A stretch of DNA of 64,000 bases, from assembly GCA_016179865.1 (NCBI GenBank), contig JACPCJ010000114.1, positions 23,108 to 87,107 on the forward strand, read 5' to 3'. Source of the DNA: Actinomycetota bacterium. Its GTDB lineage: Bacteria > Actinomycetota > Acidimicrobiia > IMCC26256 > JACPCJ01. Position numbers and translations under genes: made by a program. The notes beneath the pieces are model-generated. The model did no database searches and was not told the origin of the DNA. It saw only the letters and a list, made by a program, of their open reading frames with translations. Of the stretch, positions 54,732-56,127 are shown piece after piece (position 1 is the first letter of the stretch; each line of letters starts with the position of its first letter).

Positions 54732-55361
54732 ATGGAGACTACGCACCGCGAGTCGCCGCCGCTGCTGCCACTCCTCCGGTCGCGCCAGCAGGCCGACCTC
54801 CTTCTCTATGTCCTGACTAATCCGGCCCGCGAGGTTTCGCTCACGGAGCTCGGGGAGCGGCTGCGCATCCCGTATGCGTCGGTGCACCGTGAAGTGGAAC
54901 GGGCCCAGCAGGCCGGCATCATTGAGACGCGCTACGTCGGCAGGACTCGCGTCGTACGCGCCAACCCGGCCAGCCCGTACTTCGAGAGCCTGTCAGAGCT
55001 TCTGGTCCGCGCCTTCGGACCCCCGCAGGTACTGGCGGAGGAACTGGAACGTGCGAGCGGGATTTCGGCGGCCTACATCTTCGGCTCGTGGGCGGCTCGG
55101 TACCGGGGCGACGGGGGGCGACGGGAGGTGGGCGACATCGACGTCCTGATCCTCGGGCACGTCGATCGCGATGAGGTCTACGAAGCAGCCGCCAGAGCGG
55201 AACGACGCCTCGGGCGGCCAGTCCAGGTGACGATTCGGCGCCCAGACTGGCTCGAAACGGGGTCCGATTCATTCCACGCCACGGTGACCGCTGGTGCGAT
55301 GGTGGACGTTCCACTCACGTCGCTGTCGTCAGGGTCGGAAGATGGCGAGTTCCCCCCGTGA
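54732..55361 (+). CDS. wHTH + minimal nucleotidyltransferase (MNT) domain protein, antitoxin-like
   Basis: wHTH SLTELGERLRIPYASVHREVERAQQAGII. NTase signature GSWAARYRG...VGDIDVLILG. Confidence 0.8.
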   Translation: METTHRESPPLLPLLRSRQQADLLLYVLTNPAREVSLTELGERLRIPYASVHREVERAQQAGIIETRYVGRTRVVRANPASPYFESLSELLVRAFGPPQVLAEELERASGISAAYIFGSWAARYRGDGGRREVGDIDVLILGHVDRDEVYEAAARAERRLGRPVQVTIRRPDWLETGSDSFHATVTAGAMVDVPLTSLSSGSEDGEFPP

Positions 55362-55688
55362 AATGAGCTCGCGCGCGAATGTCAGCGCGGCGGTGGCTTG
55401 GTCGAGCGCCCAGGCCGCGTCGTCGGGCGTGATCGGAGGGCCCTCGGGAGTCGGATACTCGGCCGAATGGCGAGTGCGCCGCATTCGCTCGAAGCGTGGC
55501 TTCCCAAAGCCGGGATGTCGGTCCGCGAACTGAGCCGAGACGGCGTCTTCGACAGCGACGTGGCCTCCCTGGCTCGCTGACGCCCGAAGGCCTTGTGCTC
55601 CCAAGAGGGCAGTGGCGCTGAGGCGATAGACGTCGTACGCGAGCGCGAAGACGGTTTCGGCGTGGCCCTCGACCCGAGTCGCGCACAC
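55329..55688 (-). CDS. HEPN-domain protein, toxin-like
   Basis: ALAYDVYRLSATALLGAQGLR...GGH and an R-x4-6-H-type motif in FERMRRTRHSAEYP. The 3' end overlaps the MNT gene by 33 nt, convergently. Confidence 0.65.
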   Translation of the reverse strand: MCATRVEGHAETVFALAYDVYRLSATALLGAQGLRASASQGGHVAVEDAVSAQFADRHPGFGKPRFERMRRTRHSAEYPTPEGPPITPDDAAWALDQATAALTFARELISRGELAIFRP

Positions 55689-55704
55689 CCGCGGCGCGGT
55701 GACC

Positions 55705-56127
55705 TCAGCCGGTCAAGAGCGCGACGACTCCTGCCATCACCCCGATGGCGCTGACCTGGAGACCGGCGAAGACCCACGTCTGAGTGCGCATCCCGTCGGC
55801 CATCTCTCGGCCCAGGTCGGAGCGGAGTTGGGCCATCTCGCCCTTCAGTTCCGTTCGAAGTCCCGCCATCTCGCTGCGGAGCTCCGTGCGCAACTCGGCC
55901 ATCTCACCCTTGAGCTCCGCTCGAACGGCCCGGATCTCACCCCGGAGTTCCGCGATCTCACCTCGGAGTTCCGCGATCTCCCCGCGGACGCCCGTGAGGT
56001 CGTCCTTGGTGGCGAGGTTCTCGGTGGGCGTCAACGGAAGGCGCTCCAGCAGTTCGGTTGTGGCCTCGTCTCCAATCCGCTCGATGAGGAGCTCCCGGAG
56101 ACGAAGGTCGTCTGCTCTCGAAACCAT
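55705..56127 (-). CDS. Coiled-coil protein with C-terminal TM helix (DUF1640-like), built from heptad repeats
   Basis: GEIAELRGEIAELRGEIRAVRAELKGEMAELRTELRSEMAGLRTELKGEMAQLRSDL, then WVFAGLQVSAIGVMAGVVALL. 21-bp tandem DNA repeats at 55933-55974. Confidence 0.8.
   Translation of the reverse strand: MVSRADDLRLRELLIERIGDEATTELLERLPLTPTENLATKDDLTGVRGEIAELRGEIAELRGEIRAVRAELKGEMAELRTELRSEMAGLRTELKGEMAQLRSDLGREMADGMRTQTWVFAGLQVSAIGVMAGVVALLTG

What the first reader, a model, noticed from the sequence alone, without database searches (positions are those of the whole stretch)
54732..56127. Unusual MNT / HEPN arrangement: convergent overlapping genes, with HEPN co-operonic with a heptad-repeat membrane protein
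Canonical HEPN-MNT pairs are co-directional. Here the wHTH-MNT gene (plus strand) and the HEPN-like gene (minus strand) converge and overlap by 33 nt at their 3' ends, which allows antisense interference. The HEPN gene instead lies 16 nt downstream of a 140-aa coiled-coil protein with a C-terminal TM helix. That protein's body is a run of about 8 heptads encoded by 21-bp tandem repeats, two of them near-perfect (one mismatch) at 55933-55974. A membrane-tethered coiled coil plus HEPN, opposed by an HTH-MNT, could be a three-component variant not covered by the described HEPN-MNT systems.
Basis: partly seen in the sequence, partly recalled or inferred. Interest (0 to 1): 0.6.

Follow-up and report, generated by a model that had tools for sequence, protein, structure and literature searches.

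The report
Convergent HEPN–MNT pair, toxin gene truncated
This is a decayed copy of a known candidate toxin-antitoxin/phage-defence gene pair (PADLOC PDC-M05); the neighbouring coiled-coil membrane gene is not part of it, but the tail-to-tail overlap of the two genes is an inherited hallmark of a whole clade, which nothing I found describes.

Summary
A wHTH-MNT gene (54732-55361, +) and a HEPN-like ORF (55329-55688, -) converge and overlap by 33 nt. A 140-aa coiled-coil protein with a hydrophobic C-terminal tail lies 16 nt upstream of the HEPN ORF and contains 21-bp and 33-bp tandem repeats.

The three-component reading is refuted. Homologs of the coiled-coil protein (DUF1640/CCDC90-like) occur in 0 of 175 related loci. 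The window's HEPN ORF is a 5'-truncated remnant of 119 aa, against about 164 aa in the family. It lacks the N-terminal module and core helix α1, and the homology break falls next to the coiled-coil gene's stop.

The pair matches the PADLOC candidate system PDC-M05: M05A at E=1.9e-49 and M05B at E=3.2e-9.

The convergent arrangement is conserved, not accidental. It occurs in 84 of 86 close loci, mostly with overlapping stop-proximal ends (modal overlap 4 nt). More distant relatives are co-directional (59 of 62 metagenome loci and seven of the nine plasmid loci inspected). All convergent loci form one clade (bootstrap 192/200).

Every evaluable MNT gene in that clade has a leaderless-type promoter, usually set in a palindrome.

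Verdict: an ordinary, degraded member of a known kind, belonging to an architectural variant that I found described nowhere.

The parts
54703..54736 (.). Imperfect palindrome spanning the promoter and start codon of the wHTH-MNT gene. It is the presumed operator for autorepression.
   Evidence: arms 54703-54721 and 54718-54736, 19 nt, 79% complementary. A palindrome in the same register recurs in most related loci, with consensus TATCCrCAAAcTGAAGA-GTAT-TCTTCAaTTTGTGGATA.
54719..54724 (+). -10-like hexamer TATCAT, 7 nt upstream of the ATG at 54732. This implies a leaderless mRNA.
   Evidence: 79 of 79 clade members have TANNNT 7 nt (69 loci) or 9 nt (10 loci) upstream of an in-frame start, against 3.3 of 79 expected from shuffles. 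The function is inferred from established actinobacterial leaderless-promoter architecture and was not measured.
54732..55361 (+). Intact wHTH-MNT gene (PDC-M05A-like): an ArsR/MarR-type winged helix fused to a minimal nucleotidyltransferase with the G118-S119 and D135-x-D137 motifs.
   Evidence: MarR_2 2.3e-9; Polbeta 2.5e-4. (PDC-M05A 1.9e-49, full length). (GS and DxD invariant). (pLDDT 87.9; matches SqrR/HlyU, 8xeo_B MNT antitoxin and 7bxo MntA).
55329..55361 (.). 33-nt overlap of the 3' coding ends of the two convergent genes.
   Evidence: In 84 related loci the overlap is 4 nt (28 loci), 41 nt (12), 101 nt (9) and other values; 74 of 83 scorable loci overlap by at least 4 nt.
55329..55688 (-). 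5'-truncated HEPN gene remnant (PDC-M05B-like). It corresponds to residues ~62-171 of the nearest full-length homolog.
   Evidence: homologs ~164 aa. (no N-terminal coding remnant in 54001-57000). (matches profile positions 52-145 of 151 only). (the missing part is H5-13, E17-19 and helix 26-52). (no Pfam hit on its own). (family-conserved Asp, 81 of 85, replaced by Thr).
55659..55704 (.). Rearrangement junction. Homology to the HEPN family ends here and the neighbouring gene's stop codon follows.
   Evidence: homology begins at about residue 11 of the ORF (about 55658); the DUF1640-like gene is full length up to its stop at 55705-55707. No strong Shine-Dalgarno sequence lies before the GTG at 55688 (read directly).
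55705..56127 (-). DUF1640/CCDC90-like coiled-coil protein with a hydrophobic C-terminal tail. It is a neighbour, not a component of the pair.
   Evidence: 1182 homologs; several are named 'DUF1640 domain-containing protein' and carry PF07798. (the window protein scores 21.5 bits, below the cut-off of 33.5). (absent from 175 related loci). (its homologs have unrelated neighbours).
55831..55988 (-). Tandem DNA repeats (33 bp x2.9 and 21 bp x2.7) that encode the 11- and 7-residue coiled-coil repeats.
   Evidence: The repeat number varies between homologs.

Best explanation
The locus is a decayed copy of a two-gene wHTH-MNT/HEPN module of the PDC-M05 kind, a HEPN-MNT toxin-antitoxin-like candidate defence system. 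It belongs to a monophyletic, mainly Acidimicrobiia-borne subclade. In that subclade the HEPN gene is inverted relative to the ancestral MNT-then-HEPN operon, so the two genes converge and their stop-proximal ends overlap.

Shown:
- In intact members each gene has its own start signals.
- The MNT gene always has a leaderless-type -10 box, usually embedded in a palindrome.
- The HEPN gene has a TACGGT-type leaderless promoter or a Shine-Dalgarno leader, and shows no copy of the MNT palindrome.

Inferred:
- The wHTH domain binds the palindrome and autorepresses the MNT gene.
- The MNT domain neutralises the HEPN protein enzymatically, as type VII MntA does, possibly on the invariant Tyr of the R-phi-x-x-x-Y motif.
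- With no room for a terminator between the genes, convergent transcription couples their expression inversely, through polymerase collision and/or antisense pairing.

In this window the toxin half is disabled:
- A deletion or rearrangement removed the first ~50-60 codons and the promoter of the HEPN gene.
- That event placed the remnant 16 nt behind an unrelated DUF1640 coiled-coil membrane-protein gene.
- The wHTH-MNT gene and its operator remain intact, giving an orphan antitoxin/regulator. This is the usual order of TA decay.
For: Family identity:
- PADLOC PDC-M05A 1.9e-49 and PDC-M05B 3.2e-9.
- HEPN Pfam hits in 43 of 70 homologs.
- Folds confirmed.

Conserved convergence:
- 84 of 86 loci are convergent.
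- Overlap distribution.

Ancestral state:
- Relatives at 33-46% identity are co-directional (plasmids).
- 59 of 62 metagenome loci with a detectable HEPN are co-directional.
- Homology of the two HEPN sets is shown (35% identity, full length).

Single origin:
- All 75 distinct convergent tips form one clade with no co-directional tip.
- Bootstrap support is 192/200.

Independent promoters:
- 79 of 79 MNT genes have TANNNT plus a start codon.
- 29 of 66 HEPN genes have the same signal, and 26 more have a Shine-Dalgarno-like motif.
- The operator is not found upstream of HEPN beyond chance.

Mobility as a unit: 75 left flanks fall into 52 clusters and 75 right flanks into 61.

Truncation:
- establish it.
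- Short database forms elsewhere are start-calling artefacts.
- The junction is reproduced by an independent assembly.
- The remnant's 90% cluster has a single, Logan-only member, whereas both neighbours carry NCBI proteins.

Literature:
- PDC-M05 is described as an NTase plus a HEPN protein and as TA-like (PMC12988326).
- One representative protected E. coli against at least one phage (PMC12881386).
- MntA oligoAMPylates a Tyr next to the R-phi-xxx-H motif (PMC13000451).
Against: - No expression, toxicity or AMPylation data exist for this clade.
- The classical Rx4-6H histidine is replaced by Tyr family-wide, so RNase activity is not assured.
- The remnant ORF is still open for 119 codons and keeps all but one of the family's strictly conserved residues. 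The truncation may therefore be recent, or the remnant may retain some activity.
- The overlap length is highly variable (-39 to +319 nt), which argues against a precise antisense element.
- Foldseek E-values for the HEPN model are weak (0.04-0.15), though probabilities are 1.0.
- The tree is NJ only.
Confidence: 0.8

Rival explanations
1. A three-component system in which a membrane-tethered coiled-coil protein and HEPN form an operon opposed by the HTH-MNT.
For: - 16-nt spacing on the same strand.
- The ORF is intact.
- The arrangement is reproduced in a second assembly.
Against: - The coiled-coil homolog is absent from all 175 related loci.
- DUF1640 homologs have unrelated downstream genes: ERCC4, Rv0078B-like, DUF433+PIN.
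- The HEPN ORF is truncated exactly at the junction.
- No ribosome-binding site is evident.
Confidence: 0.03
2. The truncated 119-aa HEPN is a functional 'mini-HEPN'. It would be expressed by read-through from the DUF1640 gene and still be controlled by the MNT.
For: - Open frame of 119 codons with the R-H-x3-Y motif and the GxH histidine retained.
- Only one strictly conserved residue is lost.
- The partner MNT is intact.
Against: - It lacks the 27-residue helix α1 of the bundle and the N-terminal element.
- No other truncated member was found among those inspected; the short database entries are start-calling artefacts.
- It has no Pfam hit on its own.
- No NCBI protein is on record for it.
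Confidence: 0.12
3. At family level the pair is not a toxin-antitoxin or defence module. It would be a regulatory two-subunit nucleotidyltransferase, with HEPN as the substrate-binding subunit of a KNTase-like enzyme and the wHTH providing transcriptional control.
For: - The classical catalytic His is replaced by Tyr in 141 of 143 sequences.
- PF05168-type HEPN domains often lack the canonical motif (PMC3710099, Table 1).
- M05A is annotated NT_KNTase_like (PMC12881386).
Against: - The cassette sits in highly variable contexts and in a TA-rich island here.
- It was catalogued by guilt-by-embedding in defence systems (10.1101/2024.01.29.577857).
- One representative gave phage protection (PMC12881386).
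- A second conserved His (GxH, 141 of 143) could complete an active site.
Confidence: 0.15

Closest known systems
PADLOC phage-defence candidate PDC-M05 (M05A wHTH-nucleotidyltransferase plus M05B HEPN). Sources: Payne et al. 2024, bioRxiv 10.1101/2024.01.29.577857; PMC12988326; PMC12881386.
   Same: - Both proteins hit the PDC-M05 HMMs.
- Same domain make-up: ArsR-like wHTH plus KNTase-like NTase, with a HEPN partner.
- The genes are adjacent.
   Different: - Relatives on plasmids and most metagenome relatives are co-directional with the MNT gene first. This clade is convergent with overlapping 3' ends.
- The window copy has a truncated M05B.
- The papers I read do not mention gene orientation.
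[quoted passage not shown]
   Same: - A minimal NTase with the GS...DxD motif is paired with a HEPN protein that carries a conserved Tyr at the active-site helix.
- The MNT model superposes on MntA (7bxo, 8xeo).
   Different: - HepT is of the DUF86 type with R-phi-xxx-H-x-Y. Here the HEPN is PF05168-like with R-(N/H)-xxx-Y, so Tyr sits at the His position.
- The MNT carries an N-terminal wHTH.
[quoted passage not shown]
Type I toxin-antitoxin pairs with convergent, 3'-overlapping antisense transcripts (for example txpA/RatA and bsrG/SR4 of Bacillus subtilis). This comparison rests on my own knowledge and was not tested here.
   Same: Toxin and antidote genes are transcribed towards each other with overlapping 3' ends, so antitoxin transcription can depress toxin mRNA.
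   Different: In those systems the antidote is a non-coding RNA. Here both partners are proteins, and any antisense effect is only inferred.
DUF1640 / CCDC90-like coiled-coil proteins (PF07798).
   Same: - The 140-aa protein shares the conserved N-terminal segment, the variable coiled-coil repeats and the hydrophobic C-terminus with more than 1000 homologs.
- Some of those homologs are named DUF1640.
   Different: - The window protein itself scores below Pfam's cut-off (21.5 against 33.5 bits).
- It has no functional link to HEPN or MNT.

Membership tests
HEPN superfamily (PF05168-type) | Up-and-down helical bundle fold of the HEPN domain | tested here: met
   For the family: the AF2 model of the nearest full-length homolog has pLDDT 92.8, and its top PDB matches are HEPN domains (1wol, 3o10, 2hsb with TMt 0.74, 1ufb; probability 1.0; E 0.04-0.15). 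The window copy encodes only residues ~62-171 of that model and lacks helix α1.
HEPN superfamily (PF05168-type) | Profile match to Pfam HEPN | tested here: inconclusive
   43 of 70 full-length homologs match PF05168 at E<=0.01, best 1.3e-7. The window ORF itself matches nothing in Pfam or NCBIfam.
HEPN superfamily (PF05168-type) | Rx4-6H catalytic motif | tested here: inconclusive
   The convergent clade reads R-x-R-R-T-R-H-S-A-Q-Y. R-x5-H fits the regular expression. Alignment with co-directional relatives (R-N-x-x-E-Y) places Tyr at the classical His position and H/N at the polar position after Arg. A separate GxH histidine is conserved in 141 of 143 sequences.
[quoted passage not shown] | MNT with the GS...DxD nucleotidyltransferase motif and the pol-beta fold | tested here: met
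   G118, S119, D135 and D137 are invariant. The model matches 8xeo_B and 7bxo_E/A. Pfam Polbeta scores 2.5e-4, which is below the cut-off.
[quoted passage not shown] | Operon with the MNT gene upstream of and co-directional with HEPN | tested here: not met
   The genes are convergent here and in 84 of 86 close loci.
[quoted passage not shown] | HEPN toxicity neutralised by MNT-catalysed oligoAMPylation of a Tyr | not testable with these tools
   An invariant Tyr exists (84 of 85 and 57 of 58), but the modification and the toxicity need experiments.
PADLOC PDC-M05 | Adjacent genes matching the M05A and M05B HMMs | tested here: met
   M05A PDLC04370 at 1.9e-49 over profile positions 4-187 of 194. 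M05B PDLC04375 at 3.2e-9, covering only positions 52-145 of 151.
PADLOC PDC-M05 | Anti-phage activity | not testable with these tools
   The only evidence is one heterologous representative reported as protective (PMC12881386). Nothing exists for this clade, and the window copy lacks an intact M05B.
   0 of 175 related loci carry a homolog of the coiled-coil protein within the fetched flanks.
DUF1640 / CCDC90-like (PF07798) | Profile match above Pfam's gathering score | tested here: inconclusive
   The window protein scores 21.5 bits against a cut-off of 33.5. Many homologs at 40-57% identity carry PF07798 or the name DUF1640.

The most novel reading that the evidence does not exclude
A monophyletic lineage of HEPN-MNT (PDC-M05) modules abandoned the antitoxin-first operon for a convergent, 3'-overlapping layout with two independent, often leaderless promoters. 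In that layout, head-on transcription or antisense pairing between the two mRNAs, rather than translational coupling, would set the toxin-to-antitoxin ratio. This would be a protein-protein TA whose expression logic resembles type I systems. The change is accompanied by an Asn-to-His substitution next to the active-site Arg.
Probability: 0.3. Interest if true: 0.6.

Novelty: new variant of a known kind. Interest (0 to 1): 0.42.

Why it matters
For this window the result is mostly deflationary. The 'three-component system' is a rearrangement scar beside a broken toxin gene, and the pair is already in PADLOC as PDC-M05.

The follow-up does expose something useful for the toxin-antitoxin and defence field. 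It is a well-sampled natural experiment (more than 80 loci in one clade, bootstrap 96%) in which an enzymatically neutralised TA pair has been stably rewired from an operon to convergent, overlapping genes.

Neighbourhood surveys that require co-directional genes would not score such pairs as operons; the HEPN census in PMC3710099 is one example. The clade offers a direct test of whether transcriptional interference or antisense pairing can replace translational coupling in controlling a toxin.

The clade also provides a conserved palindrome, -10 box and leaderless start arrangement that is a ready-made operator to test.

Tried and rejected
- **Remnant of the HEPN N-terminus.** I searched window 54001-57000 by tblastn with five full-length homologs at word size 2. 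Nothing was found.
- **PDB sequence search.** A family profile found no solved relative at E<=1.
- **NCBIfam, including the SAV_6107-type HEPN models.** There was no hit for the remnant or for five full-length homologs.
- **MNT operator upstream of HEPN genes.** Its occurrence was no better than in random segments: 3.55 against 3.66 mismatches.
- **Consensus sigma-70 promoter and intrinsic terminator scan of 54500-56400.** Nothing was found. This scan is uninformative for high-GC actinobacteria.
- **Rfam scan of 50000-64000.** No family reached the gathering threshold.
- **IMG/VR viral contigs.** No relatives of the MNT were found.
- **Literature.** I found no paper describing convergent or tail-to-tail HEPN-MNT pairs.
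- **Natural 'short HEPN' isoforms.** I considered and rejected this idea. The 112-116-aa database entries (P0016, P0038) have the full N-terminus encoded in frame upstream, so they are start-calling artefacts.
- **Assembly chimera at the junction.** I considered and rejected this. An independent assembly is identical across the junction.
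Full report
**1. What is in the sequence**

- 54732-55361 (+), 209 aa.
- 55329-55688 (-), 119 aa, GTG start.
- 55705-56127 (-), 140 aa.

The two inner genes overlap by 33 nt at their 3' ends. The 119-aa ORF starts 16 nt after the stop of the 140-aa gene.

TRF finds a 21-bp repeat of 2.7 copies at 55933-55988. The units at 55933-53 and 55954-74 differ at one base. 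TRF also finds a 33-bp repeat of 2.9 copies at 55831-55926. The protein therefore has both 7-residue and 11-residue repeats.

A Logan assembly of SRR12113431 matches window 54600-56354 base for base. The junctions are therefore not an assembly artefact.

**2. Domain identities**

*The 209-aa protein*
- It hits Pfam MarR_2 (2.3e-9) and, below cut-off, Polbeta (2.5e-4).
- G118-S119 and D135-x-D137 are invariant among 64 homologs.
- Its AF2 model (pLDDT 87.9) matches ArsR/SmtB repressors in the N-terminal half.
- The C-terminal half matches MNT antitoxins, including 8xeo_B and the MntA chains of 7bxo.

*The 119-aa ORF*
- It hits nothing in Pfam or NCBIfam on its own.
- It has 203 homologs. Of 70 full-length ones, 43 match PF05168 HEPN.
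- The AF2 model of the nearest full-length homolog (pLDDT 92.8) finds HEPN domains as its top PDB matches.

*The 140-aa protein*
- It belongs to the very large DUF1640/CCDC90-like group.
- It is full length relative to its homologs.

**3. The HEPN gene here is truncated**

- Family members are about 164 aa. The window ORF aligns only from about family residue 58 onward.
- No trace of the N-terminal ~55 residues exists in any frame of 54001-57000.
- PADLOC's M05B profile is matched only over positions 52-145 of 151.
- In the model, the missing part is a small N-terminal helix/strand element plus the 27-residue helix α1 of the bundle.
- Shorter database entries elsewhere (P0016, P0038) are start-calling artefacts, because the full N-terminus is encoded in frame upstream. 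The truncation here is therefore genuine.
- Homology ends between about 55659 and 55704, right next to the DUF1640 gene's stop.
- An Asp conserved in 81 of 85 clade members is Thr here.
- The ORF's 90% cluster has a single, Logan-only member, while both neighbours have NCBI proteins.

I read the ORF as a toxin-gene remnant left beside an intact antitoxin/regulator.

**4. The coiled-coil gene is not part of the system**

- tblastn of the 140-aa protein against 175 related loci found only the window itself. Those loci comprise 86 close loci, 9 plasmid loci and 80 metagenome loci.
- Homologs of the coiled-coil protein sit next to unrelated genes: ERCC4, Rv0078B-like, DUF433+PIN and a 659-aa protein.

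**5. The convergent arrangement is conserved**

- In 84 of 86 loci fetched with the HEPN family, a homolog of the wHTH-MNT lies immediately downstream on the opposite strand. The homologs are 47-62% identical to the window protein.
- These loci come mainly from Acidimicrobiia MAGs. Some are from Streptosporangiaceae, and one is from Dormiibacterota.
- Stop-to-stop geometry does not depend on start-codon calls. The overlap is 4 nt in 28 loci, 41 nt in 12 and 101 nt in 9. The window's 33 nt falls inside this distribution.
- The flanks are highly variable. 75 left flanks fall into 52 clusters and 75 right flanks into 61. The two-gene cassette therefore moves as a unit.

**6. The convergent arrangement is derived**

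- More distant wHTH-MNT relatives have the HEPN gene downstream on the same strand, often with a 4-nt overlap. These are on Rhodococcus, Mycobacterium, Curtobacterium, Tsukamurella, Bradyrhizobium and Legionella plasmids.
- The Rhodococcus HEPN is 35% identical over its full length to a convergent-clade member.
- A metagenome scan seeded on the Rhodococcus MNT gave 59 co-directional, 2 convergent and 1 distant arrangement among 62 loci with a detectable HEPN.
- In an NJ tree of 161 distinct MNT sequences, all 75 convergent tips, including the window, form one clade with no co-directional tip.
- The split has 192/200 bootstrap support.
- The arrangement therefore arose once by inversion and has been inherited while the proteins diverged to about 50% identity.
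[quoted passage not shown] That census counted only unidirectional genes as operons (PMC3710099).

**7. Regulatory signals**

- All 79 evaluable MNT genes of the clade have a TANNNT hexamer 7 or 9 nt upstream of an in-frame start codon, against 3.3 expected by chance.
- This is the leaderless-mRNA promoter layout familiar from actinobacteria (established knowledge).
- In the window the hexamer is TATCAT at 54719-24, before the ATG at 54732.
- In most loci the hexamer sits in the centre of a long palindrome whose right arm contains the start codon. The co-directional actinobacterial relatives show a similar design.
- I infer that the wHTH domain binds this palindrome and autorepresses the gene.
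- HEPN genes have their own signals. TACGGT-type hexamers lie 6-8 nt from the start in 29 of 66 loci, and Shine-Dalgarno-like leaders occur in 26 more.
- HEPN upstream regions do not carry the MNT palindrome beyond chance.
- The coding regions abut or overlap, so there is no intergenic room for a terminator. Convergent transcripts must overlap unless termination occurs inside the partner gene. This is an inference and was not measured.

**8. Active-site motif**

- The convergent clade reads R-x-x-R-H-x-A-Q-Y, with H in 83 of 85 sequences.
- The co-directional relatives read R-x-x-R-N-x-x-E-Y, with N in 54 of 58.
- In both groups a Tyr occupies the position of the classical His of R-phi-xxx-H.
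- A separate GxH histidine is conserved in 141 of 143 sequences.
- In characterised type VII systems, MntA oligoAMPylates a Tyr next to the motif (PMC13000451).
- Whether this Tyr is the acceptor, and whether these HEPN proteins are RNases at all, cannot be decided here.

**9. What is known**

- Both proteins match PADLOC's candidate system PDC-M05.
- PDC-M05 was defined by guilt-by-embedding (10.1101/2024.01.29.577857).
- It is described as an NTase plus a HEPN protein, TA-like and archaea-enriched (PMC12988326).
- One representative was reported to protect E. coli against at least one phage (PMC12881386).
- I found no paper describing convergent or tail-to-tail HEPN-MNT pairs.

**10. Context**

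The pair lies directly downstream of an Lhr-type helicase ORF (50481-54689; the family is assigned from reading the translation, not from a profile search). It sits at the edge of a TA-rich island that contains:
- XRE-HTH plus a DUF6036 NTase.
- Mobile mystery protein A plus a truncated B.
- A TacA-like antitoxin plus a GNAT.
- A SocA/Panacea antitoxin.

Truncated genes are thus not unusual in this island.

**11. Verdict**

It is wrong on the three-component system.
- The locus itself is an ordinary, degraded member of a catalogued candidate system.
- The clade-wide convergent, overlapping architecture is an architectural variant of a known kind that I found described nowhere. Its mechanism is inferred, not demonstrated.

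Noticed in passing
window 56266-57385: A co-directional pair of an XRE-type HTH protein (197 aa, HTH_3 4.8e-10) and a DUF6036-like nucleotidyltransferase (173 aa, 9e-5, just below cut-off), with 4 nt between the genes. It looks like another antitoxin/NTase-type module.
   Followed up: partly
window 57494-58288: Mobile mystery protein A (TIGR02612, 2.6e-46) is followed by a mobile mystery protein B (Fic-type) ORF of only 108 aa, which matches profile positions 2-95 of 186. This is a second truncated toxin-like gene in the same island.
   Followed up: partly
window 59198-60102 and 60814-62230: A TacA-like antitoxin (2.4e-23) overlaps a weak GNAT acetyltransferase ORF. Further on lie an XRE-HTH protein (324 aa, - strand) and a SocA/Panacea-domain antitoxin (2.1e-17). 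The region 54.7-62.3 kb is a toxin-antitoxin island downstream of an Lhr-type helicase ORF at 50481-54689. The Lhr label comes from reading the translation, not from a profile search.
   Followed up: partly
alignment of HEPN partners from 143 loci: The residue after the active-site Arg is His in the convergent clade (83 of 85) and Asn in co-directional relatives (54 of 58). This substitution tracks the gene inversion. Its meaning is unknown.
   Followed up: partly
L020 (CAVRXW010000066.1), L085, L179: These are exceptions to the tight pair. L020 has about 1.66 kb between HEPN and MNT. L085 has a HEPN homolog with no MNT nearby. L179 has an MNT 60% identical to the window's, with no detectable HEPN within 2.4 kb. 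They are possible further decay or insertion states.
   Followed up: no
L094 1465-3009 (Mycobacterium sp. JS623 plasmid pMYCSM02): A 514-aa protein whose N-terminal ~190 aa is a wHTH-MNT of this family, fused to a ~320-aa C-terminal region of unknown identity. No separate HEPN gene is annotated.
   Followed up: no
L098 (ENA ERZ27254865 k141_1512978) and window 50481-56127: In a relative, a DUF1640 homolog (42% identical) also lies a few genes from an Lhr helicase gene, in convergent orientation to it. The DUF1640 gene may therefore be the resident chromosomal neighbour, with the PDC-M05 cassette as the insert.
   Followed up: no
P0016 / L183 2001-2339 and P0038 / L182 2001-2351: Public gene calls of 112-116 aa for this HEPN family use internal start codons. 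The conserved N-terminus is encoded in frame upstream, in one case probably from a GTG start.
   Followed up: yes
window 55831-55988 and alignment A6: The number of coiled-coil repeat units in DUF1640 homologs varies widely between close relatives. This is consistent with expansion and contraction of the 21/33-bp DNA repeats.
   Followed up: partly
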